Shown: positions 6,317-44,779 of the stretch, in pieces | How positions within the stretch are numbered: the first letter of the stretch is position 1 | Layout of the letters: every line of letters begins with the position of its first letter | DNA from: Acidimicrobiales bacterium | GTDB taxonomy: Bacteria > Actinomycetota > Acidimicrobiia > Acidimicrobiales > CADCSY01 | Assembly (NCBI GenBank): GCA_035553895.1 | Contig: DATMJI010000211.1 | Span: 1 to 44,938 of the forward strand | DNA: 44,938 nucleotides | Direction: 5' to 3' | Position numbers and translations under genes: made by a program | The notes under the pieces: generated by a model | Database searches by the model: none | Told to the model about the DNA's origin: nothing | What the model saw: only the letters and a program-made list of their open reading frames with translations

Positions 6317-7675
6317 TCAAGGATGCAGCGGGGCCCCTGTAGGCCGGTCCCGGCGGCGAAGATCGCGGTGAATCGCCGGAAGAGTAAGCAAAACCAGAAC
6401 CAATGGATAGACCAACGATCGCTGGCGGGCCAGGATCCCGAAGTTGGAGATGGTCGAGAAGGCCACGACGTAAAGCAATGAATAAATCACCACGAAGGCG
6501 ACATACGGTGAAAGAAGGGCGGAACGCAGCGAGGCGACCACCCGCCGGGCCGACCACACGAAGAGCACCAGCAGGGCCATTCCCTCGAGCGAGGTCGCCA
6601 GCGCCTGGGCGTTGTTGGCCTCGAAGGGGAACGGGCGGAAGAGCACGGCCAGTGCCGCCTGGGGCAACGTCCAGGGTTGCTGGGCGGCGCTCACCGCCGC
6701 GAAGTCCGACTCGCCACCGGTGCTCTTGTCGGCGGTGTTCTCGATGAGGGCGTTCACCGAGTCGGTGTCCAGCTCGTCGAGGTTGAAGAAATCCTGGAAG
6801 CGCCCGGCGACGAGCACGCCGAGCAGGAGCAGCACCGCCATGCCGAGCACCTTGGCGCCGGTCAGCACCCGTCCTTGCGGTCCCGGGCTCCGGCGCAGGA
6901 GGTAGCCGCCCGCCAGGGCGAGAAAGACGAGCACGCTCAGGTGGGGGCGGACCAGGGCGGTGGTGGCGAGTCCGAGGGCCAGGATGAGGAATCCCCCCCG
7001 GCGCCCGGGGCTGAGGACCAAGGTGGCGCCGTAGACGGCGACGCCCAGCGTCAGCATCATGGCGGCCTCCTTGCCCAGGCTGGAGGGCCAGAACAGCACC
7101 GTGGGCAGGAAGAACAAGAGCAGGGCATAACGGTGATGATCGCCCTGGGGCAGGGCCCGGCGGTAGGCCAGGAAGAACAGGTACAGCCCGAGGAAGGCCA
7201 TCCAGGAGAACACGAAGAACCCGCCCAACTTGGTGGGCCCGATGACGGCGTAGACCACCCCGGTGAGCACGTTGATGGCCTGGGTGCCCTCTCCCCCGCC
7301 ACCGGCGTCGAAGGCCAGGCTCCCGGAGCGCAAGGAGGCGGCGATGGTCCGCCCGGCCCCGTGGTAGCCCTGGGCGTCGCCCGTGCCGTAGACCCCGAAG
7401 ATCACGACATAACGCACCACGGTGCCGGCCACCACCTTGGCCAGCACCGCCAGCTGCAGGATTCGCACCAGGCGGATGTCGCCCTGGCGCCGGGCCTGGA
7501 GGGTCACCAGGGGCAAGGTGACGGCGAGCAGCACCGGCAGCACGATCAGCCCTCCCCAGATGTCGTAGCTGGTGCGCTGCATGGCCCAGGACAGGGCGGC
7601 CAGATAGGCGACGGCGCCGCCGATCACCGGGACCGAGGCCAACTCCGGCCGCGAGGGCAACGAGATCGAGGTCAC
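6317..7675 (-). CDS. Polytopic membrane protein, putative polysaccharide polymerase/ligase (Wzy / O-antigen-ligase-like)
   Basis: GTG at 7675 overlaps the upstream stop (GTGA). About 10-12 hydrophobic segments and one large loop (DELDTDSVNALIENTADKSTGGESDFAAV). It sits last in a minus-strand operon behind two GT4 genes. Function is inferred from topology and context, not from a diagnostic motif. Confidence 0.5.
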   Translation of the reverse strand: MTSISLPSRPELASVPVIGGAVAYLAALSWAMQRTSYDIWGGLIVLPVLLAVTLPLVTLQARRQGDIRLVRILQLAVLAKVVAGTVVRYVVIFGVYGTGDAQGYHGAGRTIAASLRSGSLAFDAGGGGEGTQAINVLTGVVYAVIGPTKLGGFFVFSWMAFLGLYLFFLAYRRALPQGDHHRYALLLFFLPTVLFWPSSLGKEAAMMLTLGVAVYGATLVLSPGRRGGFLILALGLATTALVRPHLSVLVFLALAGGYLLRRSPGPQGRVLTGAKVLGMAVLLLLGVLVAGRFQDFFNLDELDTDSVNALIENTADKSTGGESDFAAVSAAQQPWTLPQAALAVLFRPFPFEANNAQALATSLEGMALLVLFVWSARRVVASLRSALLSPYVAFVVIYSLLYVVAFSTISNFGILARQRSLVYPLVLVLLTLPAIHRDLRRRDRPTGAPLHP

Positions 7676-8877
7676 GACCGGGCCAGGACCTCGTCGTAGG
7701 CATCCTGCTGGCGGCGCACCGCCACCTCGAGGTCGAAGTCGCCCGAACGGATCCTGGCCTCCCGGGCCAGGCGGGCCCGCCGTTCCGGCTCGTCGAGTAG
7801 CCCAGCCAGGGCGGCCACCAGGGCCCGCTCGTCTCCGGGCGCCACCAGGAGCCCGTGCACGCCGTGGCGGACGACCTCGCCCACCCCCCCCACGTCGGTG
7901 GCCACGCACGCCACGCCGGAGGCCATGGCTTCGAGCAGGGCGATGGGCAGGCCCTCGTGGCGGGAGCTGAGGGCGAACACGTCGAAGGCGGGCAGGATCT
8001 CCAACACGTCGTCGCGGGAACCGGCGAACACCACCCGGCCGGCCAGATCGGGCTCCTCGGCCCGCGTCCGCAGCGATGCCTCCAGGGGACCTGATCCGAC
8101 CAGCACCAAGCCGAGATCGGGATGGTCCGGCGCCAGGGCCGCCACGGCCCCGAGCAGGGCCAGCTGGTCCTTCTTGGCGGTGAAGTTGCCGACGCTGCCG
8201 ATCACCTGGCGGTCGGCGGCCAGCCCCAGCGCCCGGCGGGCAGCGACGCGCGCCTCCTCGCCGTGGTGGGCCGCCAGGGGATCGATGCCGTGGACGAGCA
8301 CCTCCAGGGGCGGCAGGCCCCGGCGCCGCCTCCCGGCGCCGGAGCGGATCGACTCCGCCACTCCCTCCGAGACGCTCAGCACCAGCCGGTTGCGGTGGTA
8401 GGTGGCGGCGTTGGACCAGCAGGTGAGGCGCCGGTAGCGGTCCCAGACGTTGTGCTCGGTGTGGACGAGGGCGGGGCCCCCTCGCCGGGGAGCGATCAAG
8501 CGGGCCGCCACCGCCGGGACCGGCATGTGGGTGTGGACGATGTCGAAGCGGCCCTGGCGGACGAGTCGGCCCAGGCGGGGTACCCAGCCCGGCCCCCGGC
8601 CCCGGCCCAGGCAGTGCACGGGCACCCCGCAGGCTTCGACGTCAGCCACCAGTGCGTCCTTCCAGTCCAGGACGTAGGCCACCTCCACCTGGTGGCGGCT
8701 GCGGTCGTGGTGGCGGGCGGCCCCCAACAGGAGCCGTTCGGTCCCGCCCCGCCCCAGGCCCTTGGTGAGCCACAGGACGCGCGGAAGTCGGCTCCCGGGG
8801 GTGCGGTCCGGCGCCGGGGCGCGTCCCTGCGCTCCCACCTCCTCTCGCCCAGCCGTGCCGGCTCCCGATCGCTGCAC
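7672..8877 (-). CDS. Glycosyltransferase family 4 (GT-B, Glycos_transf_1)
   Basis: N-terminal VLWLTKGLGRGGTERLLL and C-terminal SRHEGLPIALLEAMASGVACVATDVGGVGEVV (EX7E-type region). The GTG start at 8877 is uncertain; an in-frame GTG at 8838 is possible. Confidence 0.85.
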   Translation of the reverse strand: MQRSGAGTAGREEVGAQGRAPAPDRTPGSRLPRVLWLTKGLGRGGTERLLLGAARHHDRSRHQVEVAYVLDWKDALVADVEACGVPVHCLGRGRGPGWVPRLGRLVRQGRFDIVHTHMPVPAVAARLIAPRRGGPALVHTEHNVWDRYRRLTCWSNAATYHRNRLVLSVSEGVAESIRSGAGRRRRGLPPLEVLVHGIDPLAAHHGEEARVAARRALGLAADRQVIGSVGNFTAKKDQLALLGAVAALAPDHPDLGLVLVGSGPLEASLRTRAEEPDLAGRVVFAGSRDDVLEILPAFDVFALSSRHEGLPIALLEAMASGVACVATDVGGVGEVVRHGVHGLLVAPGDERALVAALAGLLDEPERRARLAREARIRSGDFDLEVAVRRQQDAYDEVLARS

Positions 8878-8979: not shown

Positions 8980-10053
8980 TCAGCCGAGGACCTCCTCGAG
9001 GAGGTGGGTCCAGGCCGAGGCGACGGAGGTGAGCTCGAAGCGGTCCAGGCACCGGCGCCGGGCGGCCGCCACCAGCGCCCCGGGGGCTTCCAGGACCTCC
9101 GTCACCGCCGCAGCCAGGGCCCGCCCGTCCGCGGGAGGTACCAGCCGGCCCGTCTGCCCGTCCACCACCACCTCGGCCACGCCGCCTACGGCGGTGGCCA
9201 CCACGGGGATTCCGCTCAGGCCGGCTTCGATGAGCACGCCGGGCATGCCCTCGCTGCGGCTGGGCAGCACCAGGACATCGGCTGCCGCCAGCACCGATGC
9301 CGGCTCGGCGGCGACGCCGAGGAAGCGGACCCGGCCCGGTGCCACCGCCGCCGCCAGCGCCTCCAGGCCGGCCCGCTCGGGCCCGTCCCCCGCCACCACC
9401 AGCTCGACGCCGTCCAGGTGGACGAGAGCCCGGATGGCGACCCCGACATCCTTCTCGGGGGTGAGGGACCCGACGAAGACGGCCACGGCGCCGCCGGGGG
9501 CCAGAGCCAGCGCCCGGCGGGCGGCGAGGCGGTGGGGTTCTTCCACCAGGGGGAAGCGCCCGGCGGGCACCCCGTTGGGGATGACGTGGATCCTCGACGC
9601 CGGCACCCCGTAGCGGCGGGACAGCTCGCCGGCCGCTCCCGGCCAGAGGGCGGCCACCGCCCGGGCCCGCCGCAGGAGCAGGCCCGCCCGCAGGCGCCGG
9701 CCCGGCGAGGCCGACCAGTACCCGGGGTCCCCGATGTTGCGGTAAACGAAGGGCACCGGGCGTCCCAGCAGCCCGAGGGCGCAGGCCGGCAGGGTGCGGG
9801 ACCCGTGGGCCACGACGACCGCCACCCCGGCGGCCTCCGCCCGCAGGCGCCCGAGGGTGGAGGGGGACAGCGCCCGGGTGCCGAGGTGGGCCACGTCGAG
9901 GGCAGCGCCGTGCCCGCCGGGGACGAGGGCCACGGACCGCACGTCCAGTCCCCGGCCGGTAAGGGCGCGGCCGAGGTCGGTGGCGAACACCTCGGCCCCG
10001 CGCCGCTGGCTGGACGCCAACACCTGGAGCACCGCCGGGTGCGACCCGTGCAC
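8980..10053 (-). CDS. Glycosyltransferase family 4
   Basis: In-frame GTG at 10053 with GGAGGTGGG just upstream (track ORF extends to 10305). Motifs: VLQVLASSQRRGAEVFATDL and SRSEGMPGVLIEAGLSGIPVVATAVGGVAEVV. Confidence 0.85.
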   Translation of the reverse strand: MHGSHPAVLQVLASSQRRGAEVFATDLGRALTGRGLDVRSVALVPGGHGAALDVAHLGTRALSPSTLGRLRAEAAGVAVVVAHGSRTLPACALGLLGRPVPFVYRNIGDPGYWSASPGRRLRAGLLLRRARAVAALWPGAAGELSRRYGVPASRIHVIPNGVPAGRFPLVEEPHRLAARRALALAPGGAVAVFVGSLTPEKDVGVAIRALVHLDGVELVVAGDGPERAGLEALAAAVAPGRVRFLGVAAEPASVLAAADVLVLPSRSEGMPGVLIEAGLSGIPVVATAVGGVAEVVVDGQTGRLVPPADGRALAAAVTEVLEAPGALVAAARRRCLDRFELTSVASAWTHLLEEVLG

Positions 10054-10275: not shown

Positions 10276-11421
10276 GTGGACTTCGGGTGGACCGAGGAAC
10301 AGCAACGCCGCCGCCAGGAGGTCATCGACTTCGCCCGGCGGGAGCTCAACGACGACGTGCGGGAGCGCGACGCCGGCGCCGCCTTCTCGGCCGAGGCGTG
10401 GAAGCGCTGCGCCGGCTTCGGCATCCAGGGCCTTCCCGTCCCTGAGGAGTACGGCGGCCAGGGTGCCGACCCCATCACCATCATGATGACGATGGAGGCG
10501 CTCGGCTACGGCTGCGCCGACAACGGCCTGCTCTTCGGCCTCGGCGCCCAGATGTGGTCGGCCGAGACCCCTTTGGTGCGCTTCGGCACCGAGGAGCAGA
10601 AGCGCCGCTTCCTCCCCGGCCTCTGCGACGGCTCGCTCGTCGGGGTCCAGGCCATGACCGAACCGGAGTCGGGCTCGGACGCCTTCGCCATGTCGACCCT
10701 GGTGGAGCAGCGCGGTGACCGCTACGTCCTGGACGGGACCAAGACCTTCATCACCAACGCCCCGGTGGCCGACGTGATCGTCGTCTTCGCCACCTCGGCG
10801 CCGGGCAGGGGCTTCGGCGGTGCCTCGGCCTTCCTCGTCGAACGAGGCACGCCGGGCCTGGAGATCGGTCCCCCGCTGGCCAAGATGGGCCTACGCACCA
10901 TCCCCATGGGCGAGGTCAGGCTCTCCGGCTGCGAGGTGCCGGCCGAGAACCGGTTGGGACCGGCGGGCGCGGGCCTGGCCATCTTCAACCACTCCATGGA
11001 CTGGGAGCGCAGCTACATCCTGGCCGGCGCTGTCGGCACCATGCAGCGCCAGCTCGACCGCTGCATCAGCCGGGCCCGGGAGCGCCGCCAGTTCGGCCAG
11101 GCCATCGGGAAGTTCCAGGCCGTGGCCCACCGCATCGTCGACATCCACACCAGGGTGCGCACCGGCCGCCTCCTGCTCTACGAGCTGGCTTGGCTGCGCA
11201 CCCAGAAGAAGTCGACCACCGTGGAATCGGCCCTGGCCAAGCTGTGGGTGAGCGAGTCGTTCCTGGCCTCGAGCCTCGACGCCCTGTTCGTCCACGGGGG
11301 TGCGGGCTACCTCACCGAGAACGAGCTCGAACGCGACGTGCGCGATGCGGTGGCCGGCTGCATCTACTCGGGGACCTCGGACATGCAGCGCAACATCATC
11401 GCCGCTCGCCTCGGTCTGTGA
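10276..11421 (+). CDS. Acyl-CoA dehydrogenase family flavoprotein (possibly acting on a carrier-protein thioester)
   Basis: GTG at 10276 after GGAGGA. ACAD-typical blocks: AMTEPESGSDA, TKTFITNAPVADV, RRQFGQAIGKFQAVAHRIVD, and C-terminal IYSGTSDMQRNIIA. Confidence 0.85.
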   Translation: MDFGWTEEQQRRRQEVIDFARRELNDDVRERDAGAAFSAEAWKRCAGFGIQGLPVPEEYGGQGADPITIMMTMEALGYGCADNGLLFGLGAQMWSAETPLVRFGTEEQKRRFLPGLCDGSLVGVQAMTEPESGSDAFAMSTLVEQRGDRYVLDGTKTFITNAPVADVIVVFATSAPGRGFGGASAFLVERGTPGLEIGPPLAKMGLRTIPMGEVRLSGCEVPAENRLGPAGAGLAIFNHSMDWERSYILAGAVGTMQRQLDRCISRARERRQFGQAIGKFQAVAHRIVDIHTRVRTGRLLLYELAWLRTQKKSTTVESALAKLWVSESFLASSLDALFVHGGAGYLTENELERDVRDAVAGCIYSGTSDMQRNIIAARLGL

Positions 11422-13025
11422 GCGCCCACCTGCTGCACCACCTGCTGGACGCCGCCGCCGAGCGCCGGCCCGGCGCCGGCGCCGTGGTCGACCGCCAGCG
11501 CCGCCTCACCTACGCCGAGCTGGCCGGCCGGGCCAACCGGGTGGCCCGCCTGCTGGTGGCGTGCGGCGTGGCGCCGGGCGAGCGGGTCGGCCTGTACCTG
11601 GAGAAGTCGCCCGAGGCCATCGCCGGCCTGTTCGGGGTACTCAAGGCGGGCGCCGCCTACGTGCCGCTGGACCACCACGCCCCGGCCGAGCGCCTCGCCT
11701 ACATCGCCGCCGACTGCGGGATCCGGACCCTGCTCACCACCTCGGCGCAGTTGCCGGCGTGCGGCGAGCTGGTCGCCGCCGGTGCCCCGCTGGAGCGCCT
11801 GGTCGTCCTCGACGCCACGGGTACCGAGGCCGACGGGGACCAGCCGGGCGTCGAGGTGCCGGGAGTGGAGGTGCTGGGCCCGGTGGAGCTGGCCGCCCAG
11901 GAGGCCTCGCCTCCACCGGTCCGGGTCATCGACCTGGACCTGGCCTACATCCTCTACACCTCCGGCTCCACCGGGCGCCCCAAGGGGGTGATGCTGACCC
12001 ACCGCAACGCCTTGACCTTCGTCGAGTGGGCGGTGACCCGCTTCGCCGTGAGCCCCGAGGACCGGCTGTCGAGCCACGCCCCCCTGCACTTCGACCTGTC
12101 CGTCTTCGACGTCTTCGCCGCCTCGGCCGCCGGGGCCGGGCTGTTCCTGGTTCCCCCCGAGGCCTCGGTCCTGCCCCTCGAAGCCGTCCGTTTCATGGCC
12201 GCCCACGAGCTCACGGTGTGGTACTCGGTGCCCTCCATCCTGGTCATGATCGCCCTGCGGGGCGGCCTGGCCGCCGGTGACCTCCCCCGGCTACGGGCCG
12301 TCCTCTTCGCCGGCGAGGTGCTGGCCCCCAAGCACCTGCGCCGGCTCATGGAGCTCCTGCCCCACGCCGACTTCCACAACCTCTACGGCCCGACCGAGAC
12401 CAACGTCTGCACCCACCACCAGGTGCGCCAGCCCCCGGGCGACGGCGACGGCATCCCCATCGGGCGAGCCATCGACCGGGTCGAGGTCTTCGCCCTGACC
12501 GACGACGGGCAACGGGCGGCGCCGGGGCAGGTGGGTGAGCTCTACGTGCGGGGCACGACGGTGATGAGCGGCTACTGGGGCGACCACGACCGCAGTGCCC
12601 AGGTGCTGGTGCCCGACCCGCTGGGCCGCCCGGTCGGGGACCGGGCGTACCGCACCGGCGATCTGGTGCGGGAGGATGCCGGCGGCAATCTCCACTTCCT
12701 CGGCCGGCGCGACGCCCAGATCAAGAGCCGGGGCTACCGCATCGAGCTGGGTGAGATCGAAGCCGCCCTCCACGCCCATCCGGCCGTGCTGGAGTGTGCC
12801 GTGGTGGCCGTCGCCGACGAGCTCGTCACCAACCGCATCACCGCCTACGTGGCCCGGCGCGACGATGTCGGCCGGGACGAGCTGGTGGCCTTCTGTGGCC
12901 GGCGAATTCCGAAGTATATGATCCCCGAGACGTTCGAGTTCCGGGAGAAGCTGCCCAAGACATCGACGGGAAAGATCGACCGCTTGGCCCTGGCGAGGGG
13001 CGAACACGGAACGGATGGGACATGA
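11418..13025 (+). CDS. Stand-alone NRPS-type adenylation enzyme (DltA-like amino-acid--carrier-protein ligase)
   Basis: GTG at 11418 overlaps the ACAD stop (GTGA). Core motifs: LAYILYTSGSTGRPKGV (A3), HFDLSVFDVF (A4), NLYGPTETNV (A5), YRTGDLV (A7), GRRDAQIKSRGYRIELGEIE (A8), PKTSTGKIDR (A10). Confidence 0.9.
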   Translation: MSAHLLHHLLDAAAERRPGAGAVVDRQRRLTYAELAGRANRVARLLVACGVAPGERVGLYLEKSPEAIAGLFGVLKAGAAYVPLDHHAPAERLAYIAADCGIRTLLTTSAQLPACGELVAAGAPLERLVVLDATGTEADGDQPGVEVPGVEVLGPVELAAQEASPPPVRVIDLDLAYILYTSGSTGRPKGVMLTHRNALTFVEWAVTRFAVSPEDRLSSHAPLHFDLSVFDVFAASAAGAGLFLVPPEASVLPLEAVRFMAAHELTVWYSVPSILVMIALRGGLAAGDLPRLRAVLFAGEVLAPKHLRRLMELLPHADFHNLYGPTETNVCTHHQVRQPPGDGDGIPIGRAIDRVEVFALTDDGQRAAPGQVGELYVRGTTVMSGYWGDHDRSAQVLVPDPLGRPVGDRAYRTGDLVREDAGGNLHFLGRRDAQIKSRGYRIELGEIEAALHAHPAVLECAVVAVADELVTNRITAYVARRDDVGRDELVAFCGRRIPKYMIPETFEFREKLPKTSTGKIDRLALARGEHGTDGT

Positions 13026-13276
13026 CGAACGAGGACCGGGTGCGGAACTTCATCCGCACCGACCTGGGCGCCGGGGCTTCGGTGGAGCTCTCCGACGACT
13101 ACCCCCTGATCGAGAACGCGGTGATCGACTCGCTCGGCATCTTCGAGATGGTCCGCTTCATCGAATCGGAGTTCGACGTCGAGGTCGACGACGAGGATCT
13201 GCTCCTCGACAACTTCGCCACCATCGCCGACATCGCCCGCCTGGTCGATGCCAAGCAGGCCCAGCAGGCGACCTGA
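13022..13276 (+). CDS. Acyl/peptidyl carrier protein
   Basis: ATG at 13022 overlaps the upstream stop (ATGA). 84 aa, acidic, with phosphopantetheine-site motif VIDSLGIFEMV. Confidence 0.85.
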   Translation: MTNEDRVRNFIRTDLGAGASVELSDDYPLIENAVIDSLGIFEMVRFIESEFDVEVDDEDLLLDNFATIADIARLVDAKQAQQAT

Positions 13277-13362: not shown

Positions 13363-14250
13363 TCAGACGTCCCAGGCCAGCTCCTGGCCCAGGAGCTCGC
13401 CCAGGCGCCGGTTGTGCGGGCGGAAGTGCTCGATCAGCTCGGCCCGGGTGTCGCCGGCCATGGGCCGGTAGCTACCGGCGTAGAGCCGGGGGTAGCTCGG
13501 GAGGGCGACCTCGGCCAGGCCCAGGAAGGCCAGGACGCCGGCCATGGCCCCGGCCGCTTCCTCGAAGAGATCCTCGCTGCGAACGACGAGGAGCTGGTGG
13601 CGGGGCAGTACGTTCAGGGCTCGCTCCACCCCGTCGGCATAGGCCCCCCGCGCCAGGTAGGAGTACCGGCGGTAGGCGTCGCCCGGGTAGGCCGGATCGG
13701 CCGCCAACCGGTCGAGCTCGCCGGCCAGGCGCTGCGGCTCGGCAGCCAGGGCGTCCTCGAAAGAGAGGGGCTCGGCGCCCTGCTTGCGCACGTGGTGGTA
13801 GTGGGAGTACGCCCGGTCCACGGGGTTGCGGAGCAGGGCGATCAGCCGCACCTCGGGCAGGGTGGCGGCGATGCGCTCGGGCGCCCGGGGGTGGAAGAGG
13901 TAGTCGGTGCTGGCCTCACCGGTGCGTATCCCGCCCCCGCCGGGCCCGGCCCACCTCCCCGGCAGGGCGAGGGGGAACTGGCTGCGGTACCAGCGCAGGC
14001 CACGCTGGTAGTGCCAGTCGAAGAAGTGGAGCTCCTTCTTGCGGGCCTTGGCGATCTCGGGGTGCTGCCCGAGGTAGTTGTACAGTGACGTGGTGCCGCA
14101 CTTCATGGCGCCGGCGATGAGGAAGTCGGGGAGCTGGCGCAGCGGGCTGGTGAGCAACCGCAGCGGGTCCCGTTCCCGGCACTGGCGGCCCAGCGCCCTC
14201 GCCCGGGCCGGTACCCGGCGGGCGGCCCGCTCCACGGCTCCGGGATGCAT
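13363..14250 (-). CDS. Sulfotransferase, heparan-sulfate-type (Sulfotransfer_1-like), class A copy 1
   Basis: C-terminal third of track ORF 13363..15471. Motifs: LPDFLIAGAMKCGTTSLYNYL (5'-PSB P-loop), KELHFFD, WYRSQF, GEASTDY, RLIALLRNPVDRAYSHY (3'-PB). The start is either ATG 14250 or TTG 14157. Confidence 0.8.
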   Translation of the reverse strand: MHPGAVERAARRVPARARALGRQCRERDPLRLLTSPLRQLPDFLIAGAMKCGTTSLYNYLGQHPEIAKARKKELHFFDWHYQRGLRWYRSQFPLALPGRWAGPGGGGIRTGEASTDYLFHPRAPERIAATLPEVRLIALLRNPVDRAYSHYHHVRKQGAEPLSFEDALAAEPQRLAGELDRLAADPAYPGDAYRRYSYLARGAYADGVERALNVLPRHQLLVVRSEDLFEEAAGAMAGVLAFLGLAEVALPSYPRLYAGSYRPMAGDTRAELIEHFRPHNRRLGELLGQELAWDV

Positions 14251-15363
14251 GGCGCCGGCCAGTGTAGATGGACCGGGGCCCTGAAGGTCCTTTACGTCTG
14301 CAAGGCGGTGGACGAATCGAGCCCGGTCCTGGCCAACCAGGTGCGTTGGATCCGGGCCCTGGCCCGCCAGCCCGGGGTGGACGAGGTCCGGGTGCTCACC
14401 CCTCGCCGGGGCCGGGCCGACTTGCCCCCTGGGGTCACCGTGCACCCCTTCGGGTCCCGCCCGCCCCTGCAGGTGGCCCGGGCCAGCGCCCGCTTCTACG
14501 CCCGCCTGGCCCGGGTGGTGCGGGGCGTCGACCTGGCCTTCGTCGCCCAGGGGGGCCACTACCCGGCCCTGCTCCTGCCCTGGAAGCTGGTGTCCCGCCG
14601 GCCCGTCTACCAGTGGAAGGCCATGCCCCACATCTCGGCCCGCATGCGTTTCTACGCCCGCTACTGCGACGACCTCGTCTTCACCGCCACCCCCGGTTCG
14701 TTCCCCCTGGCGGGGGACAGCGTCCGGGTGGTGGGCCACGGGATCGACACCGAGCTGTTCGCGGCGCCACATCCCGGTGCCCCCGCCCCCGGGCGCGACC
14801 TGGTCACCGTCACCCGCATCGCCCCGGTGAAGCGGTTGGAGGAGATGATCCGGGCCGTCGCCGAGGTGCGCCGGCGCTTCGGTCGGGCGCCCGGCCTCGA
14901 CATCGTCGGAGCGTGCGACGCCCGCAGCCAGGACCACCGCCGCCACCTGCTGCAGGTGATCGACGCGCTCGACCTGGGGGCATCGGTCCGCCTGGTCGGC
15001 GCCGTCGAGCAGGCCCGGCTGCCGGCACTGCTCGCCGACTACCGGGCCACGCTCAATTTCGCCGAGACCGCCTTCGACAAGGCGGCGGGCGAGGCCATGG
15101 CCAGTGGGCTCCCCGTGCTCACCACCAACCCCCGGGTGGCCGAGGTCGTCCCGGCCGAGCTCCACCCCGAGTTGGTGCTGGCGGCCGGCGACCCGGTGGC
15201 CCAGGCCGAGGCCATCCACCAGGCGCTGTCGTGGGGAGAGGCGACGCGTACGAGCATCGGCGAACGCCTGCGCCAGGCCGTCGTCGACCACCACAGCCTC
15301 GACGCCCTGTTCGCCAAGATCCTCGCCGCCCACCGCCATCTGGTGGTCCAAAGAGGGCGGTAG
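14245..15363 (+). CDS. Glycosyltransferase (GT4-like GT-B fold)
   Basis: N-terminal LKVLYVCKAVDESSPVLANQV and C-terminal AFDKAAGEAMASGLPVLTTNPRVAEVV. The ATG at 14245 shares the palindrome ATGCAT with the divergent sulfotransferase start. Confidence 0.7.
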   Translation: MHGAGQCRWTGALKVLYVCKAVDESSPVLANQVRWIRALARQPGVDEVRVLTPRRGRADLPPGVTVHPFGSRPPLQVARASARFYARLARVVRGVDLAFVAQGGHYPALLLPWKLVSRRPVYQWKAMPHISARMRFYARYCDDLVFTATPGSFPLAGDSVRVVGHGIDTELFAAPHPGAPAPGRDLVTVTRIAPVKRLEEMIRAVAEVRRRFGRAPGLDIVGACDARSQDHRRHLLQVIDALDLGASVRLVGAVEQARLPALLADYRATLNFAETAFDKAAGEAMASGLPVLTTNPRVAEVVPAELHPELVLAAGDPVAQAEAIHQALSWGEATRTSIGERLRQAVVDHHSLDALFAKILAAHRHLVVQRGR

Positions 15364-17270: not shown

Positions 17271-18125
17271 GTGGCGGGAGTGGTGGACGAGCAGGCCGAC
17301 GCGCCGCCGGAGGACCTGCTCTTCCGGCGCCGGGTGCAGCCGCTGGCCGTGCTCAAGGAGCTGTGGCAGGCCCGGGAGCTGGCCCGCACGCTGGCCGAAC
17401 GGGAGCTGCGGGCCCGCTACAAGCAGACCTTCCTCGGCTTCGCCTGGGCGGTGATCACCCCGGTCATGTTGATGATCGTCTTCACCCTCTTCTTCGACAA
17501 GGTGGCCAACATCGATACGGGCGGCGCTCCTTACCCGCTCTTCTCCTACGTCGGCCTGCTGCCGTGGACCTTCTTCTCCTCGTCGGTGTCGTCGGCCTCC
17601 CAGAGCCTGGTCAGCAACATGTCCCTGCTCAACAAGGTGTACTGCCCCCGCGAGGTGTTCCCGATGGGAAGCATCCTGGTGGCCGGGCTCGACACCGTCA
17701 TCGCCACGGGTGTCCTCGGCCTGCTCTTCGCCGTCACCCAGTACGCCCCCCGGATCACCAGCGTCTACGTCCCCATCCTGCTCGCCGTCCAGCTGTGCTT
17801 CACCCTCGGTGTCGCCCTGCTGGCGGCCATCGCCACCGTCTACATCCGCGACCTCCGCCAGAGCCTGCCGATGTTCCTCCAGCTCGGCCTGTTCGCCACC
17901 CCGGTGGCCTTCGGCCTGGAGGAGATCCCCGCCAGCCTGCGTCCCCTGTACGCCGTGCTCAACCCCCTCGGCCCGGTGATCGACGGCTACCGCGACACCG
18001 TCCTGCTCGGCCAGGCCCCCGACTGGGGACTCCTGGGCCTGGGAGCAGCGTCGTCGCTGGTGCTGCTGCTCGGGGGCTACACCCTCTTCAAGCGCCTGGA
18101 GACGGGCATCGCCGATGTTGCCTGA
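17271..18125 (+). CDS. wzm: ABC-2 type polysaccharide export permease
   Basis: Blocks: ELARTLAERELRARYKQTFLGFAWAVITPVMLM and LLNKVYCPREVFP, with six hydrophobic segments. GTG 17271, 17280 or 17283 are all possible starts. Confidence 0.85.
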   Translation: MAGVVDEQADAPPEDLLFRRRVQPLAVLKELWQARELARTLAERELRARYKQTFLGFAWAVITPVMLMIVFTLFFDKVANIDTGGAPYPLFSYVGLLPWTFFSSSVSSASQSLVSNMSLLNKVYCPREVFPMGSILVAGLDTVIATGVLGLLFAVTQYAPRITSVYVPILLAVQLCFTLGVALLAAIATVYIRDLRQSLPMFLQLGLFATPVAFGLEEIPASLRPLYAVLNPLGPVIDGYRDTVLLGQAPDWGLLGLGAASSLVLLLGGYTLFKRLETGIADVA

Positions 18126-35615: not shown

Positions 35616-36332
35616 GTGGGGACAACGCGGGTCAGCCGCGACAGCCCAGAGGCGGAGGCCGTGGACGAGACCCCAGAGCGTACGCGACGAGTGTTCCTCC
35701 GGCGCCTCGGTACGGCCAGTGCCGTGGCCGTCACCACGCCATGGGTGGCCCCCACGATCGTGACCCGCAGCATCGCCTCGGCGGCGGTGGGTAGCCCTCC
35801 CCCAGGCGGGGGCACCACGACCACCACCCAGCCGGGCGGGGGCACCACGACCACCACCCGGCCCGGCGGGGGCACCACGACCACCACCCGCCCCGGCGGG
35901 GGCACCACGACCACCACCCGCCCCGGGGGGGGCAACACCACCACCACCCAGCCGGGCGGGGGCACCACGACCACCACCCGGCCCGGCGCCACCACGACCA
36001 CCCGGCCTGGCGGGGGATCGACCACGACGCAGCCGGGCGGCGGGCGGGCACCCGAGGCCCAGCGCACGACCACCACCACGGGGGGTGGCCCATCCGGCAC
36101 GGGAACCGGGAGCGGCCAGCAGGGTGGCGGCCAGCAGGGTGGCGGCTCCCTGGCCCGGACCGGCGCCGAGCTGCTGGGCATGGCCGGGGTGGGCACGGCG
36201 GCAGTGGCCACCGGTGCCGCCGCCCGGGCGGCCGCCCGCCGCGGGGCGGCAAGGGCCGAGGCCGACCAGGACGATGCCGGCGACCCCGGGTCCGGGGAGG
36301 CCGACGGGTCCGACGTCCCGCCCGGCGACTGA
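35616..36332 (+). CDS. Thr/Gly/Pro tandem-repeat surface protein with an LAxTG sortase-type sorting signal
   Basis: Tat-like leader ERTRRVFLRRLGTASAVAV and (PGGGTTTTT[QR]) x6 plus degenerate copies. LARTG is followed by the hydrophobic stretch AELLGMAGVGTAAVATGAAA and the basic RAAARRGAAR. Start is GTG 35616 or GTG 35661. Confidence 0.7.
   Translation: MGTTRVSRDSPEAEAVDETPERTRRVFLRRLGTASAVAVTTPWVAPTIVTRSIASAAVGSPPPGGGTTTTTQPGGGTTTTTRPGGGTTTTTRPGGGTTTTTRPGGGNTTTTQPGGGTTTTTRPGATTTTRPGGGSTTTQPGGGRAPEAQRTTTTTGGGPSGTGTGSGQQGGGQQGGGSLARTGAELLGMAGVGTAAVATGAAARAAARRGAARAEADQDDAGDPGSGEADGSDVPPGD
35802..36032 (+). repeat. In-frame 30-nt tandem repeat (six full units plus degenerate units)
   Basis: Units ccNggcgggggcaccacgaccaccaccc(ag/gg/gc) at 35802, 35832, 35862, 35892, 35922 and 35952. 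Shortened copies follow to about 36032. Confidence 0.9.
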
Positions 36333-36437: not shown

Positions 36438-37394
36438 TCAGAACAACTCGACGTCGCCCAGGCTGAGGGCCCAGGTGGCCGGCGGGGGGACGTCGGTGCC
36501 GGCCAGCGGTCGCCACAGCAGGGTCGGGCCCTGGCCCGGGAGCGGGAAAAAGCCACGGGCGCCGGGCCCGGCCAGGCGGATGGCGTAGTCGCTGCCGGCC
36601 AGGCCCGCCACCCGGCGGGCCAGCTCACCCGCCAGGCCAGGATCGTCACCGGGAACCACGGTGTCGGCCACCACCGCCTCCACCGCCCGGCCCCGGCGCC
36701 GCAGCCGGAACAGAACGAAGCCTTCGCCGGCAGCGCTGCCCGCCAGCAGGGCGCGGTAGTGCAGGGGGGCGAACCCGTAGCGCCAGGCCAGGACCTCGGG
36801 GCGGCGGCGGGTGCGCAGGACCGAGCCGGGCGGGGCGGTGGCGAGCAGGGCGGCCACCGCTTCCCGGTCGGCCAGCACCTCGGCGGCCGGCACTCCGGCA
36901 CCCGTGGGCAACGACCAGCGCCCGGCCGGGCACCGGGAGCGGGCCATGGGCCACAACGACCACGGCCGGCGGGGACGGGCGAGGACCCCCAGGCGGCCGG
37001 CCTGGCGCCAGCCCATCTTGAGGTAGCCCGGCCGGCTCCGCTCGTTGGGGGTGTTGAACACCAGCGCCACTCCCTCGGCGGTCAGCTCCTCGACCGCCTG
37101 GCGGGTGAGCCGGGTGAACAGGCCCTGGCCCTGGTGGTCGGGATGGGTGGCGGTATCAACGGCCCGTACGGCGGGGATGACGGCTCCGCCGTGCTCGAAC
37201 TCCCAGCGCATGAAGGTGCGCAGGGCCACCACCTCGGCCCCGACAGCGGCGATCCAGGTGGGCGAGGGCCCAAAGGCGTTGCCCTGGTGTTTCCAGGCCA
37301 GCAGATCGGCGTCGGGCCCGCCGGCCGGCCAGCCCATGGTCGTGCGCAGGAGCCGGACGATCCCGGCCTCGTCAGCGGTGGTCGCCCGGCGCAC
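36438..37394 (-). CDS. GNAT-family N-acetyltransferase with a C-terminal extension of about 170 aa
   Basis: GNAT start VRRATTADEAGIVRLL and motif A HPDHQGQGLFTRLTRQAVEE. GTG 37394 is preferred over the track TTG 37547 because 37395-37547 has many A/T third positions. Confidence 0.7.
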   Translation of the reverse strand: MRRATTADEAGIVRLLRTTMGWPAGGPDADLLAWKHQGNAFGPSPTWIAAVGAEVVALRTFMRWEFEHGGAVIPAVRAVDTATHPDHQGQGLFTRLTRQAVEELTAEGVALVFNTPNERSRPGYLKMGWRQAGRLGVLARPRRPWSLWPMARSRCPAGRWSLPTGAGVPAAEVLADREAVAALLATAPPGSVLRTRRRPEVLAWRYGFAPLHYRALLAGSAAGEGFVLFRLRRRGRAVEAVVADTVVPGDDPGLAGELARRVAGLAGSDYAIRLAGPGARGFFPLPGQGPTLLWRPLAGTDVPPPATWALSLGDVELF

Positions 37395-37565
37395 GACGGC
37401 GGCTCCGGGCGCCGGGGATGGTGACGGCGAGGTGATGCCCGGGCAGCCTAGGGCTGCTCGCAGACTCACGGCGTTGGCGCCCCCCGACCGCCCCTCCCGT
37501 TTCGCCTGCGCAACGACGCCGAGATCGAGGCGCTCTGCAGGCCGCAAGCAGATGTGAGACGGCGC

Positions 37566-38387
37566 TCAGGTGGTGGCGCCGGCGTGGCGGCGCCGGTTCA
37601 GCGCCGCCCGCAGCTGCTCCTCGAGCACCATGCCGCCCTCGATCTTGTGGGCGTACCAGCGCATGCCGTCGGCCACCTGGATGGCCGAACGGTTCAGCCG
37701 GTAGATGTCGCTAGCGCCCCAGCGGTTGGGGCGGGCACCGCCCACGGCGGCGGAGCGGAACCGGGCCCGCACTGCGGCCTCGGCCGCCGCCGATCCGGCC
37801 ACCGCCTTGGGATAGGCGAAGTGCCGGGCCGTCACCCCCAACCGCTCGCCGATGAGCTCGATCGAGCGGTCGAGCTCGCTGGCGGCGAGCCCGGGATCGG
37901 CCCGGTCGAGGAGCAAGTGGGTGTGGGTGTGGGAGCCGATGCTCACCAGCCCGGTGGTCAGGGCGTCGCCCAGCGACCCCCACGAGGCCGGGGCACCGTC
38001 GTCGGGAAATGAGCATCCCCGCTCCACGAAGTCGGTGGCCAGGTACAAGGTGGCGGGGATGCCGTGGCGGACCAGGACCGGCACGGCCTCCTCGACGAAG
38101 TCGGCGGTGCCGTCGTCGAAAGTGACCACCACCGGGCTGGCGACGTGGTCCGGAGCCGTCCCGGCGATCAGGGCATCGACGGCGTCGTCGAGCGTGATCA
38201 CCCGCCCGCTGGCGGCGAGCACGGCCATTTGGCGCTCGAAGAGGTCGGTCGGCAGGTCGACCTGCACGGCGGTGCGGGCCCCGACCCGGTGGTAGATGAG
38301 CACGATCACCCCGGCACCCGGCGAGCGCAGGCGGTCGGCGGCGGCGGCGGCGACCTTGATCGCCCGCAGACCGAGGCCCGTCCCCAT
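37566..38387 (-). CDS. Polysaccharide deacetylase (NodB homology domain, CE4)
   Basis: Blocks: VVVTFDDGTADFVEEAVPVLVRHGIPATLYL, IGSHTHTHLLLDR, FAYPKAVAG. Confidence 0.85.
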   Translation of the reverse strand: MGTGLGLRAIKVAAAAADRLRSPGAGVIVLIYHRVGARTAVQVDLPTDLFERQMAVLAASGRVITLDDAVDALIAGTAPDHVASPVVVTFDDGTADFVEEAVPVLVRHGIPATLYLATDFVERGCSFPDDGAPASWGSLGDALTTGLVSIGSHTHTHLLLDRADPGLAASELDRSIELIGERLGVTARHFAYPKAVAGSAAAEAAVRARFRSAAVGGARPNRWGASDIYRLNRSAIQVADGMRWYAHKIEGGMVLEEQLRAALNRRRHAGATT

Positions 38388-38450
38388 CCCCGGTGTCTAC
38401 CGCGTCGGCCGTCCGACGACAACGCCCGTCTACGCGCCGCACCGTCGGGC

Positions 38451-39110
38451 ATGCGACACTGCCAGATCGTGCACGCCCCGACCCACCTTCCCGCAGCGGG
38501 CGCCAAGCGTGCCCTCGACCTGGTGCTGGGCGGGCTGGCCCTGGCGGGCACGGCGCCGCTCAGCGCCGCTGCCGCCGTGGCCATCCGCTGCTCCCTGGGC
38601 TCGCCGGTGCTCTTCCGCCAGCGCCGGGCCGGCCTGGGAGGCGAGGCCTTCGACCTGGTCAAGTTCCGCACCATGCGTCCCGCCGCACCGGGCGCCGAGG
38701 ATCCCGCCTTCGACGGCGAGCGGATGTCCAAACTGGGGCGGTTCCTCCGGGCGACGAGCGTCGACGAGCTGCCGTCGCTGTGGAACGTGCTCAGGGGTGA
38801 CCTCAGCTTGGTGGGACCTCGCCCGCTCCCGGTGCGCTACCTCGATCGCTACGACGAGCACCAGGCCCGGCGCCACGAGGTCCGCCCCGGCCTCACCGGG
38901 TGGGCCCAGGTCAACGGGCGCAACCGGCTCTCGTGGCCCGAGCGCTTCGAGCTGGACGTGTGGTACGTCGACCACTGGACCCTCGGTCTCGATCTGCGGA
39001 TCCTGGCCCTGACCGCCGTCAGGGTACTGCGGGGCGGGGGGGTGAGCCACGAGGGCCACGCCACCATGCCCGAGTTCACCGGCGGTGACGGCGCAGCCCA
39101 TGGACGCTGA
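38451..39110 (+). CDS. Small monotopic phosphoglycosyl transferase (bacterial sugar transferase, PglC/WbaP C-terminal type); likely initiating enzyme
   Basis: ATG at 38451 within track ORF 38064..39110. Blocks: AKRALDLVLGGLAL, SPVLFRQRRAGLGGEAFDLVKFRTM, DELPSLWNVLRGDLSLVGPRP, PGLTGWAQVNGRN. Confidence 0.9.
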   Translation: MRHCQIVHAPTHLPAAGAKRALDLVLGGLALAGTAPLSAAAAVAIRCSLGSPVLFRQRRAGLGGEAFDLVKFRTMRPAAPGAEDPAFDGERMSKLGRFLRATSVDELPSLWNVLRGDLSLVGPRPLPVRYLDRYDEHQARRHEVRPGLTGWAQVNGRNRLSWPERFELDVWYVDHWTLGLDLRILALTAVRVLRGGGVSHEGHATMPEFTGGDGAAHGR

Positions 39111-40092
39111 GACGTGCACCGTGCTCATCTCGGCGGCCGGCCGCCGGGTGGCCCTGCTGGAGCTGTTCCGGCGCAGCCTGGCCGAGCTGGGCCTGCGCGG
39201 TCGGGTGCTGGCGACCGACGTCACGCCGCTGGCCGCCGCCTGGCACGCGGCCGACCAGGGCTTCCTGGTGCCGCGCAGCGACGATCCGGCCTTCATTTCG
39301 GCCATGATCGAGTTGTGCCGCAGGGAGCACATCGACCTGATCATCCCGACCAATGACGTCGAGCTGCCCGTCTACGCCGCCGCCCGGGAGTGCCTCGCCA
39401 CCGCCGGCACCGCGGTGGCCGTCTCCGCCCCAGAGGTCATCAGCGTGGCCAACGACAAGGTGGCGACCCATGCCTGGCTGGTCGACCACGGCTTCCCCAC
39501 CGTGCGCCAGGCCCCGCTGGCCGAGGTCCTGGCGGCACCCCAGCACTGGCCCCTGCCCCTCGTCGTCAAGCCCCGCGGAGGAAGCTCGGCCGTCGGGGTG
39601 GCGGTGGTCGACGACCTCGCCACGCTCCGGGCCGCCGCCCGGGACGGGGCCATGGTGGCCCAAAGCATCGCCCCGGGAGTGGAGTACACCGTCGACGTCT
39701 TCGTCGATCGTTCGGGACGGTGCCGCTGCGCCGTCCCCCGCCGGCGGCTGGAGGTGCGTGCCGGCGAGGTGAGCAAGGCCGTGACCGTGCGCCACCCTCG
39801 CCTGGAGTCCCTGGTCCGGGAGCTGGTCGAGGCCCTGCCCGGGGCGTCCGGCGCCCTCAACGTCCAGGTCTTCGTCACCGACGGCGGCGACATGTCGGTG
39901 ATCGAGATCAACCCCCGCTTCGGCGGTGGCTTCCCCCTCAGCCACCGGGCCGGCGCCGCCTTTCCGGTATGGATCCTCGAAGAGATGCTCGGCCGGACAT
40001 CCAGCGCCGACGGCGGGGCGTGGGAATCTGGGGTGGTCATGCTCCGCTACGACGACGCCGTGTTCGTGCCCTCGGCGGCCGCCGGTCTCTGA
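39100..40092 (+). CDS. ATP-grasp enzyme (carboxylate-amine/thiol ligase superfamily)
   Basis: Blocks: VLISAAGRRVALLELF, NDKVATHAWLVDHGFPT, PLVVKPRGGSSAVGV, IEINPRFGGGFPL. ATG 39100 overlaps the upstream gene by 11 nt (alternative GTG 39085). Confidence 0.8.
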   Translation: MDAETCTVLISAAGRRVALLELFRRSLAELGLRGRVLATDVTPLAAAWHAADQGFLVPRSDDPAFISAMIELCRREHIDLIIPTNDVELPVYAAARECLATAGTAVAVSAPEVISVANDKVATHAWLVDHGFPTVRQAPLAEVLAAPQHWPLPLVVKPRGGSSAVGVAVVDDLATLRAAARDGAMVAQSIAPGVEYTVDVFVDRSGRCRCAVPRRRLEVRAGEVSKAVTVRHPRLESLVRELVEALPGASGALNVQVFVTDGGDMSVIEINPRFGGGFPLSHRAGAAFPVWILEEMLGRTSSADGGAWESGVVMLRYDDAVFVPSAAAGL

Positions 40093-40102: not shown

Positions 40103-40774
40103 ATGCCGGCGCTTCGCTGCGTGGTGTTCGACCTCGACGACACGCTCTACCTCGAGCGCGACTACGTCCGCAGCGGTATGGCCGCCGCCGGGAGCTGGGC
40201 CCGGCGGGAGCTGGGCGTGGAGGGTCTCGGCGAGCAGGCGTGGGCCGCCTTCGAGGAGGGGGTGCGGGGACGCATCTTCGACGTGGCCCTGGCCCGCTGC
40301 CAGGTCGAGCCCACCCCGGCCGTCGTCGAGGGGTTGGTCACCTGCTACCGGAACCACGTCCCGGACATCGAGCTGCTCGGAGACGCCCGGGGCTGCCTCG
40401 ATCGCCTCCGGGGCCGGGCGCTGGCGGTGATCACCGACGGTCCGGTCGCCAGCCAGCGAGCCAAGGCCACTGCCCTGGGGGTGAACGGCTGGGCCGCAGT
40501 GGCCGTGTTCACCGGTGAGCTCGGCGACGGGTTGTCCAAACCCCACCGCCGGGCCTTCGAGCTGGTCGAGGAGGCCACCGGCCATCACGGCGGCGCCTGC
40601 GCCTACCTGGCCGACAACCCGGCCAAGGACTTCATCGCCCCCCGGGCCCTCGGCTGGGTCACGGCCCGGGTCCGCCGGCCCGGGGGCCTGCACCACGGCG
40701 TGCCCACGGGCGACGATGTCGACGTGGAGCTGGCCGATCTGGCAACCGTGCCCTCCTGCCTGGAGCAGCCCTAG
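40103..40774 (+). CDS. HAD-superfamily hydrolase/phosphatase
   Basis: ATG at 40103. Motif I VVFDLDDTLY, ITDG (motif II region), SKPHRRAF, LADNPAKD. Confidence 0.8.
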   Translation: MPALRCVVFDLDDTLYLERDYVRSGMAAAGSWARRELGVEGLGEQAWAAFEEGVRGRIFDVALARCQVEPTPAVVEGLVTCYRNHVPDIELLGDARGCLDRLRGRALAVITDGPVASQRAKATALGVNGWAAVAVFTGELGDGLSKPHRRAFELVEEATGHHGGACAYLADNPAKDFIAPRALGWVTARVRRPGGLHHGVPTGDDVDVELADLATVPSCLEQP

Positions 40775-41967
40775 TGCGGGTCGCCCACCTCACCACCGTC
40801 GACACCAGCCTGCGCTACCTCTTGTTGCCCCAGCTGCTCGCCGTGGTGGCCGAGGGTGGGGTCGCCATCGGCATCAGCGCACCTGGGGACAGCGTCGACC
40901 ACCTGGCCGGCCTCGGAATCGAGCACCGCCCGCTGGCGTCTTCCACCAGAAGCGCCGATCTGCGGGCCGACCTACGGGCGGCCGCCGAGCTGTGGTCGGT
41001 CCTGCGCCGGGAGCACTTCGACGTCCTCCACACCCACAACCCCAAGCCCGGTCTCTACGGGCGGGTGCTGGGACGCCTGGCGGGGGTGCCGGTCGTCGTG
41101 CACACCACCCACGGGCTCTACGCCACCACCGAGGACCGCTGGCCCAAGCGCCTGGCGGTATATCTGGCCGAGGCGCTGGCCGCCCGCTTCTCCCACGCCG
41201 AGCTGGTCCAAAACCCCGAGGATCTGGCCCTCATGACCCGGCTGCACATCCTCCCCCGGGGCCGGGGCGTGCTCCTCGGCAACGGGATCGACCTCGAGCG
41301 CTTCGATCCCGACCGGCACGGCAACGCCCGGGCGGTCATGCGCCGCCGGCTCGGCATCGGCGACGACCAGCTGGTGGTCGGCACGGTCGGCCGGCTGGTG
41401 GCCGAGAAGGGCCACCGGGAGCTGTTCGAAGCCATGACCCTCCTGGACCGGCACTACCAGCTCGTCGTGGTGGGCCCCGAGGACCCTGAGAAGGCCGACG
41501 CCCTGCCGGCGGAAGTCCTGGATGCGGCCCGGGCCCGAGGGGTGCGCCTCCTCGGGATGCGCAGCGACGTCGAGGAGCTCTACGCCGCCATGGACATCTT
41601 CGTGCTGGCTTCCCACCGGGAGGGGTTCCCCCGAGCGGCCATGGAGGCGGCCGCCATGGGCCTCCCGGTGGTGGCGACCGACATCCGGGGGTGCCGGGAG
41701 ATCGTCGTCGACGGGGACAACGGCCTGCTCGTCCGGCCCCGTGACCCGGCGGCGCTGGCCGCGGCCATCGCCCGGCTGGGGCCCGACGCCGGCCTGCGGG
41801 CCCGGATGGGCGCTCGGGGCCGGGCCCGGGCCCGGACCGACTTCGACGAACGCCAGGTGGTGGCGAGGGTCCTCGACACCTACGCCCAGATCCTCCAGGC
41901 CGGTCCGTCGGGCCGCCGCCGGCGAGCCCGCGCCACGCCCCGCGGCAGGTCGTGCGGCAGAGGATGA
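40774..41967 (+). CDS. Glycosyltransferase family 4
   Basis: GTG at 40774 shares one nt with the upstream TAG. N-terminal MRVAHLTTVDTSLRYLL and C-terminal SHREGFPRAAMEAAAMGLPVVATDIRGCREIV. Confidence 0.9.
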   Translation: MRVAHLTTVDTSLRYLLLPQLLAVVAEGGVAIGISAPGDSVDHLAGLGIEHRPLASSTRSADLRADLRAAAELWSVLRREHFDVLHTHNPKPGLYGRVLGRLAGVPVVVHTTHGLYATTEDRWPKRLAVYLAEALAARFSHAELVQNPEDLALMTRLHILPRGRGVLLGNGIDLERFDPDRHGNARAVMRRRLGIGDDQLVVGTVGRLVAEKGHRELFEAMTLLDRHYQLVVVGPEDPEKADALPAEVLDAARARGVRLLGMRSDVEELYAAMDIFVLASHREGFPRAAMEAAAMGLPVVATDIRGCREIVVDGDNGLLVRPRDPAALAAAIARLGPDAGLRARMGARGRARARTDFDERQVVARVLDTYAQILQAGPSGRRRRARATPRGRSCGRG

Positions 41968-42121: not shown

Positions 42122-44779
42122 TTGGATTCCGTCAGCTATCTGAGAATTGCCCGGGGGCGCTGGAAGATCATCGCCGCGCTGTGCCTCGTCGGCATCGTCG
42201 CCGGCTGGTTCACCACGCCCGCCCGGGTGGCGGTGACCGGCCCCGGGGCCTTCACCGCCACCCACACCCTGCGGGTGGAGGAATCCGACGACGCCCGGTC
42301 CCGGTCGGGCTCCGTCCAGAACCTCGAGGTCACCGCCCTGATGGCCACCGTGGGCGACGTACCGGAGCGGGCGGCAGCCGCCCTCGGCATCGATGAGGCC
42401 GAGCTGACGGCCATGCTCCAGACCCGAAGCGACCCCGCGGTGGGGACCGTGTCGATCCTGGCGACCGCCGCCGACCGCCAGCGGGCGGTCGACGTGGCCA
42501 ACACGGTGGCCGGTGAGCTCCTCGCCGTCCTGGGCGAGCAGGCCCAGCAGGCCTACACTGCTGAGGTCGAGGAGAAGGTGGCGTTGGTCGCCGAGCTGCA
42601 GGCCGAGCTCGATGCGCTCCCGGCCAGCACCGGCCGGGAGGATCCCCAGCGCAGCGCCGTGATCCGGCGCTTCGAGGCGGCCAGCGACGAGCTGCAGCGC
42701 CTGGAGAGCCAGGGCACCCCGACCTCCGGCTTGATCAGCCTCCAGGAGGCGACGCCCCAGCAGTCGGTGCCGGCCGGCAGCGTCGCCGACTCCCCCGCCC
42801 GCGACCAGGGCAACCGGCGCAGCGGGACCGATGGCGCCGGAGGTTCGCCGGCGGCCGGGTCCGCGGCGGCACGGCCCGAGCCCGAGGAGCCTCCCAGCCG
42901 GCCGCTGCGGATGCTCGTCGGTGGCCTCACCGGGCTCCTGCTCGGGGCCGGGCTGGCCCTGGCCCGGGAGCGCTTCGATCCCCGCATCAGGAGCCGGGAG
43001 GCAGCCGAGCAGGCGTTCGGCCTCCCCGTGCTGGCCGAGGTCCCGCCGCCCGGCCGCCGCCAACGCCGGACCGGTGCCCAGCTGGCCATGGCGGCGGAAG
43101 AGCGGACCCTGGAGGCCGAGGCCTACCGGGTGCTGCGCACGGCGCTGCTGTTCAAGGGCCTCGACGGGAGCCGCTCGCCGGGCGCAGCGGACGGCACCGC
43201 AGCGGCGCGGGGGGGCGGGAACGGCCCCGTCCCCGGGGTCATCGCCCACGCCGGCGACCTGGCGTCGGTCGCCCCCGGCCTGCCCTTGTTGAGCTCCGTG
43301 CCCGACGTGGCCGGGTGGCGATCCCCGCCAGCCACGGCGTCGGCCGTGCGCAACCCTCCGCCGCCGGTCCTCGGGGCCCATCGCCGCCTGTGGGCGTCGC
43401 TCCAGGCCTCGGGTTTCGACGGTCACGCCCGGACGCTGCTGGTCACCAGCCCGCTCTCCGGCGACGGCCGTACCACCGTGGCCGCCAACCTGGGGGCGAC
43501 CCTGGCCCGGGCCGGGCGGCGGGTGATCGTCGTCGACTGCGACCTGCGCCGGCCCCGGCTGCACGAGGTGTTCGGGATCTCGGGCACCGCCGGGCTCACG
43601 TCCATGGCCACCGGCGCCGCCAGCGTCTCCGTGGCGTGCCAGGCGGCGCCGGGTGAGGATCGCCTGTCGGTGGTGCCCGCCGGTCCGCCACCCGACGATC
43701 CTCCCGGCTTTTGGACCTCGGACCGCGCCGCCGAGGTGCTCGCCACCCTGGTGGCCCAGTCCGACATCGTCGTGCTGGACGCTCCGCCGGCCCTGGAGTT
43801 CGACGATGCGCTGGCCCTGGCCGGGCTGGCCGACGGCGCCGTGGTGGTGGTCAAGGGCAACCAGACGCCCGGGCCCGCCCTGCGCCGCACCCTGGACATG
43901 CTCGACGTCGCCGGGTCACGGCTGGTGGGGGCGGTGCTCAACGAAGCACCCCTGCGGGGCGGTGCCCCGCCGGGGCCGTCCGGCCTCGGGGCGGGCCCAG
44001 CGGCGCCGGCCCTGCCGGGCCAGCCCGTCGGCGTCATCCTGGTCACCTCGCCCGGCGCCGGGGAGGGCAAGACGACGACGGTCGCCAACCTGTCCGCCGC
44101 CTTTGCCGAGTCGGGCCGCGACACCCTGGCCATGGACCTGGACCTGCGCCGGCCGCGGCTGCACGAGTTCTTCTCGCTCCCGTTCCAGCCCGGGCTCAGC
44201 GACGTCCTGGCCTCCGGCAGCCCGAGGCTGGCCGACGTGGTCCAGGCCACCTCGATCCCCGGGCTGAGCCTGGCCCCCAGCGGGGCGGTGATCCCGGGTC
44301 CGGCGGGCCTGCTGACCCAGGCCCCGGAGCAGATCGCCGCCGCCCGCCGCGGCCGCGACGTGGTGGTGGTCGACACGCCGCCCGTGCTGGCGGCCAGCGA
44401 CGCCGGCCAGCTTCTCGCCGCCGCCGACGGGGCCGTGGTCGTCTGCCGCATGGGCGCCACCCCGGTCGACGACGCCCGGCGTACCGCCGAGCGCCTGGCC
44501 CGCTTGGGGGCACCGATCCTCGGCGTGGTGGTCATCGGCGCCCCGGTCACCACCGCCGCCCGCACCTACTACAAGAGCTACCGGAGCGCCGTCTCGGGCT
44601 CGAAGAACCACCGGGCCGGCGTCACCGCCGAATCGGGGACCGGGGCCAGGTCTCCGACACAGCCGGCGGTGGCCCCCGCCCCGAGTGCGCCCGCGGCCGC
44701 CAACGGCACCGGCGCCGCCCGGACCAAGGCCAAGGCTTCCAAGAAGCCGGCCAAGAAGCGGGCCGGTCAGCGCAATTGA
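42122..44779 (+). CDS. Wzz-type chain-length-determinant domain fused to two tandem BY-kinase (CpsD/Wzc-like) P-loop domains; C-terminal Tyr cluster and basic tail
   Basis: Best start is TTG 42122 (GGAG 9 nt upstream); the track ORF begins inside the previous gene. TM1 WKIIAALCLVGIVAGWF, a coiled region, TM2 LRMLVGGLTGLLLGAGLALA, then EAYRVLRTALLF. Domain 1: TSPLSGDGRTT / VVDCDLRRPRLH / DIVVLDAPP. Domain 2: TSPGAGEGKTT / MDLDLRRPRLH / DVVVVDTPP. Tyr cluster: TYYKSYRS. Confidence 0.8.
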   Translation: MDSVSYLRIARGRWKIIAALCLVGIVAGWFTTPARVAVTGPGAFTATHTLRVEESDDARSRSGSVQNLEVTALMATVGDVPERAAAALGIDEAELTAMLQTRSDPAVGTVSILATAADRQRAVDVANTVAGELLAVLGEQAQQAYTAEVEEKVALVAELQAELDALPASTGREDPQRSAVIRRFEAASDELQRLESQGTPTSGLISLQEATPQQSVPAGSVADSPARDQGNRRSGTDGAGGSPAAGSAAARPEPEEPPSRPLRMLVGGLTGLLLGAGLALARERFDPRIRSREAAEQAFGLPVLAEVPPPGRRQRRTGAQLAMAAEERTLEAEAYRVLRTALLFKGLDGSRSPGAADGTAAARGGGNGPVPGVIAHAGDLASVAPGLPLLSSVPDVAGWRSPPATASAVRNPPPPVLGAHRRLWASLQASGFDGHARTLLVTSPLSGDGRTTVAANLGATLARAGRRVIVVDCDLRRPRLHEVFGISGTAGLTSMATGAASVSVACQAAPGEDRLSVVPAGPPPDDPPGFWTSDRAAEVLATLVAQSDIVVLDAPPALEFDDALALAGLADGAVVVVKGNQTPGPALRRTLDMLDVAGSRLVGAVLNEAPLRGGAPPGPSGLGAGPAAPALPGQPVGVILVTSPGAGEGKTTTVANLSAAFAESGRDTLAMDLDLRRPRLHEFFSLPFQPGLSDVLASGSPRLADVVQATSIPGLSLAPSGAVIPGPAGLLTQAPEQIAAARRGRDVVVVDTPPVLAASDAGQLLAAADGAVVVCRMGATPVDDARRTAERLARLGAPILGVVVIGAPVTTAARTYYKSYRSAVSGSKNHRAGVTAESGTGARSPTQPAVAPAPSAPAAANGTGAARTKAKASKKPAKKRAGQRN

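What the first reader, a model, noticed from the sequence alone, without database searches (positions are those of the whole stretch)
6317..44779. About 38-kb glycan-assembly island with eight sulfotransferase genes of three classes: candidate heavily sulfated exopolysaccharide system
Seen in sequence: eight ORFs carry PAPS-type P-loop/5'-PSB motifs. They are at 13363-14250, 19915-20790, 25542-26375, 26381-27232, 27235-28083, 30774-31667, 31664-32623 and 32641-33609. They are interleaved with 5 GT4 and 1 GT2 genes, a PglC-type initiating transferase, wzm/wzt, a Wzy-like protein, a Wzz/BY-kinase, a deacetylase, a GNAT, a methyltransferase and an ATP-grasp/HAD pair. None of the sulfotransferases has a signal peptide, so sulfation would be cytoplasmic. 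Established knowledge: sulfated bacterial glycans are uncommon; known cases include rhizobial NodH/LpsS, mycobacterial Stf enzymes and the cyanobacterial sulfated EPS. To my knowledge, loci with this many sulfotransferases are not a described feature of actinobacterial-type genomes. Inference: the product is a multiply and regiospecifically sulfated polymer.
Basis: partly seen in the sequence, partly recalled or inferred. Interest (0 to 1): 0.85.

Follow-up and report, generated by a model that had tools for sequence, protein, structure and literature searches.

The report
Sulfated glycan island with halopyrrole cassette
An uncultured actinobacterium (class Acidimicrobiia) carries a ~43-kb gene island that appears to build a cell-surface sugar polymer with many sulfate groups and, unexpectedly, a halogenated proline-derived (pyrrole) acyl group, a combination I could not find described for any bacterium.

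Summary
All eight ORFs pass Pfam's sulfotransferase cut-offs and keep PAPS-binding motifs. An independent assembly calls the same genes. Among 96 related or comparison loci none has more than three sulfotransferases. Most of the listed neighbours are confirmed: 5 GT4, 1 GT2, a small PglC-type transferase, wzm/wzt, a Wzz/BY-kinase, a deacetylase, a GNAT, a methyltransferase and an ATP-grasp/HAD pair. The "Wzy-like" protein is the exception, because its confident model resembles GT-C glycosyltransferases.

It comprises a PltF/AnaC-like proline adenylation enzyme, a carrier protein, an AnaB/PigA-like prolyl-carrier dehydrogenase, and two α/β-hydrolase-fold proteins (one with a Cys nucleophile, one without). 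Upstream lie a transporter and two flavin halogenases, one of them Bmp2-like.

This cassette recurs inside sulfotransferase-bearing polysaccharide loci of other Actinomycetota, and in an exosortase EPS operon of a verrucomicrobial MAG.

Best reading: a lipid-linked envelope glycan that is multiply sulfated in the cytoplasm and acylated with a (halo)pyrrole-2-carboxyl group. No chemistry was tested, and PAPS supply cannot be checked from this window. I rate it a new variant of a known kind, of high interest.

The parts
1405..2832 (+). g02, a Na+/H+-exchanger-family (CPA) membrane transporter. Its stop overlaps the Hal1 start. It is probably part of the halogenase sub-module.
   Evidence: PF00999 140 bits and 11 hydrophobic helices. 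Homologues lie beside halogenase(s) and ProDH/A in L006, L020, L024 and L073, which come from three other phyla.
2829..4247 (+). Hal1, a flavin-dependent halogenase.
   Evidence: PF04820 101 bits. GxGxxG at aa 13 and WxWxIP at aa 220. Best PDB matches are CndH 3e1t (4e-48), ChlB4, CmlS, Mpy16 5buk and PltA 5dbj.
4257..5513 (+). Hal2, a Bmp2-like flavin-dependent halogenase. Bmp2 is a pyrrolyl-S-carrier-protein halogenase.
   Evidence: Best PDB match is Bmp2 5bva, E 4e-77, 263 bits. GxGxxG at aa 9 and WxWxIP at aa 219. Homologues 46-50% identical lie directly upstream of ProDH in L003, L008 and L095, and near it in L020.
5592..6077 (-). g05, a small secreted protein of unknown function and a weak paralogue of g18.
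   Evidence: Signal-like N-terminus. blastp against g18 gives E 9e-6. A 66% identical orthologue sits in the same position in L092. No Pfam hit.
6317..7675 (-). g06, a polytopic membrane protein.
   Evidence: About 10 TM helices and no Pfam hit. AF2 model has pLDDT 88 and pTM 0.89. Foldseek top hits are ArnT, STT3, AftB, ALG9, Pmt and Emb (probability about 1.0, E 6e-3 to 0.2, TM 0.35-0.49) with no Wzy or WaaL. Orthologues lie next to the ProDH cassette in L002, L008, L092 and L095.
7672..8877 (-). g07, a GT4 glycosyltransferase.
   Evidence: PF00534 130 bits and PF13439 67 bits.
8980..10053 (-). g08, a GT4 glycosyltransferase. The start is uncertain and the ORF is open to 10305.
   Evidence: PF13692 108 bits and PF00534 107 bits. 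The L092 orthologue is 357 aa.
10276..11421 (+). ProDH, an L-prolyl-carrier-protein dehydrogenase of the acyl-CoA-dehydrogenase fold.
   Evidence: PDB AnaB 4irn E 9e-125 and PigA 5zw0 E 5e-82. NCBIfam RedW and PigA models 398 bits, the top hits but below the equivalog cut-offs. The 381-aa form is on record as P0001.
11418..13025 (+). Stand-alone adenylation enzyme, predicted to be proline-specific.
   Evidence: TIGR01733 406 bits against a cut-off of 317. PltF 6o6e E 3e-99 over the full length. The 10-residue specificity code DLFSLALVCK is identical to that of the AnaC homologue of Cuspidothrix, L066.
13022..13276 (+). Carrier protein (PCP/ACP) with a DSLG phosphopantetheine-attachment motif.
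   Evidence: PF00550 27.8 bits against a cut-off of 20.8. Sequence shown.
13363..14250 (-). ST1, a class A sulfotransferase (like heparan-sulfate 3-OST and NDST).
   Evidence: PF00685 68 bits. Motifs GAMKCGTTSL, KKE and RNPVDRAYSH. A 64% identical orthologue sits in the same position in L092.
14245..15363 (+). g13, a GT-B (GT4-like) glycosyltransferase.
   Evidence: PF13692 51.5 bits and PF00534 45 bits.
15476..16306 (+). hyd2, an α/β-hydrolase-fold protein with Arg at the nucleophile position (GTRLG). It is probably the non-catalytic partner of hyd1.
   Evidence: Best NCBIfam hit is TIGR03101 hydr2_PEP at 72 bits, below its cut-off of 203. The Arg is invariant in 6 of 6 orthologues, and the protein is fused to hyd1 in L093.
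16303..17265 (+). hyd1, an α/β-hydrolase-fold protein with a Cys nucleophile (GKCFG). It is the candidate acyl-S-enzyme transferase that off-loads the carrier protein.
   Evidence: TIGR03100 hydr1_PEP at 53.5 bits, below its cut-off of 168. GxCxG is invariant in 6 of 6 orthologues. The His of the conserved HG(F/L) is replaced by Arg in the window and in L092.
17280..18125 (+). wzm, the ABC-2 permease.
   Evidence: PF01061 47.5 bits. An 81% identical orthologue is in L092.
18115..19290 (+). wzt, the ABC ATPase, with a C-terminal extension of about 140 aa.
   Evidence: PF00005. NCBIfam TagH 177 bits and galactan Wzt/RfbE 159 bits, both below cut-off.
19302..19892 (-). g18, a small secreted protein and paralogue of g05.
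   Evidence: No Pfam hit.
19915..20790 (+). ST2, a divergent sulfotransferase (singleton).
   Evidence: PF13469 59 bits. blastp to ST7 and ST8 gives E 3e-8 to 8e-8 over about 215-230 aa. Motifs GYPRSGHSL and VTRNPYDNIAT.
20878..24006 (+). g20, a large secreted protein with DUF7948, SBBP β-propeller repeats and two Calx-β domains.
   Evidence: PF25778 219 bits, PF06739 109 bits and PF03160 119 bits. The ENA gene call is 1042 aa.
24011..24703 (+). SAM-dependent methyltransferase.
   Evidence: PF13649 67.5 bits and PF08241 57.6 bits.
24700..25545 (+). g22, a predicted lipoprotein of unknown function.
   Evidence: Lipobox LVGAC. No Pfam hit.
25542..26375 (+). ST3, a divergent sulfotransferase (singleton).
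   Evidence: PF13469 87 bits. Motifs GLHRSGTSL and VRHPLVVALAT. A 36% identical homologue is in the L020 EPS operon.
26381..27232 (-). ST4, a class A sulfotransferase.
   Evidence: PF13469 77 bits and PF00685 52 bits. PDB 3rnl 2e-37, HS 3-OST-3A 1e-19 and NDST1 9e-16.
27235..28083 (-). ST5, a class A sulfotransferase.
   Evidence: PF13469 61.5 bits and PF00685 45 bits. 55% identical to ST4.
28157..29038 (+). GT2 glycosyltransferase.
   Evidence: PF13641 51.5 bits and PF00535 50.6 bits. The ENA gene call is 293 aa.
29133..29567 (+). g27, a small secreted protein of unknown function.
   Evidence: Signal-like N-terminus. No Pfam hit.
29593..30750 (-). GT4 glycosyltransferase.
   Evidence: PF13692 114 bits and PF00534 108 bits.
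30774..31667 (+). ST6, a class A sulfotransferase.
   Evidence: PF13469 65.5 bits and PF00685 47 bits. 43% identical to ST1.
31664..32623 (+). ST7, a class B sulfotransferase (TPST/CurM-like).
   Evidence: PF13469 135 bits. Motifs GCGRSGTTL, PGES, YGDKTP and RDGRDVALS.
32641..33609 (-). ST8, a class B sulfotransferase (TPST/CurM-like).
   Evidence: PF13469 138 bits. PDB TPST1 1e-18, OLS ST 4gox 6e-18 and CurM ST 5e-11.
33634..35589 (+). g32, a Tat-exported protein of the G8/CEMIP β-helix family, which includes the hyaluronan depolymerases CEMIP and TMEM2.
   Evidence: Twin-arginine signal. tblastn to the L095 protein annotated PF24606 gives E 3e-83, and to the L096 G8+CEMIP proteins E 9e-25 and 4e-20. 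Only faint direct hits: PF13229 E 0.04 and PDB 8c6i E 0.1.
35616..36332 (+). g33, a Tat-signal protein with about 8 PGGGTTTTT(R/Q) repeats and a C-terminal LARTG motif followed by a hydrophobic segment. It looks like a mucin-like wall or membrane-anchored protein.
   Evidence: Translation. A 30-bp tandem repeat of 7.3 copies. It is unique to the window among the held loci.
36438..37547 (-). GNAT acetyltransferase (Acetyltransf_9). The start is uncertain.
   Evidence: PF13527 51.5 bits. Homologues are in L008 and L095.
37566..38387 (-). Polysaccharide deacetylase with no signal peptide.
   Evidence: PF01522 64 bits. Deacetylases also occur in L017, L093 and L095.
38448..39110 (+). Small (PglC-type) polyprenyl-phosphate glycosyl-1-phosphate transferase. 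The ORF is open from 38064, but the upstream part overlaps the deacetylase gene and looks non-coding.
   Evidence: PF02397 192.5 bits. TIGR03025 239 bits over the C-terminal domain only. A single hydrophobic helix.
39085..40092 (+). ATP-grasp ligase (PylC-like / PRK12767-like).
   Evidence: PF21360 76 bits and PF02655 64 bits. NF009405 297 bits, below its cut-off of 390.
40121..40774 (+). HAD-family hydrolase.
   Evidence: PF00702 45 bits.
40774..41967 (+). GT4 glycosyltransferase, the most conserved GT of this locus type.
   Evidence: PF13692 126 bits. Orthologues 61% identical are in L008 and L095.
42122..44779 (+). Wzz-like co-polymerase fused to tandem BY-kinase domains. The first has a degenerate Walker A and the second is canonical. 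A C-terminal YYKSY tyrosine cluster follows.
   Evidence: TIGR01007 200.6 bits against a cut-off of 108, and TIGR03029 205 bits. Two TM helices, Walker A sequences GDGRT versus GEGKT, and 41% identity between the two domains.

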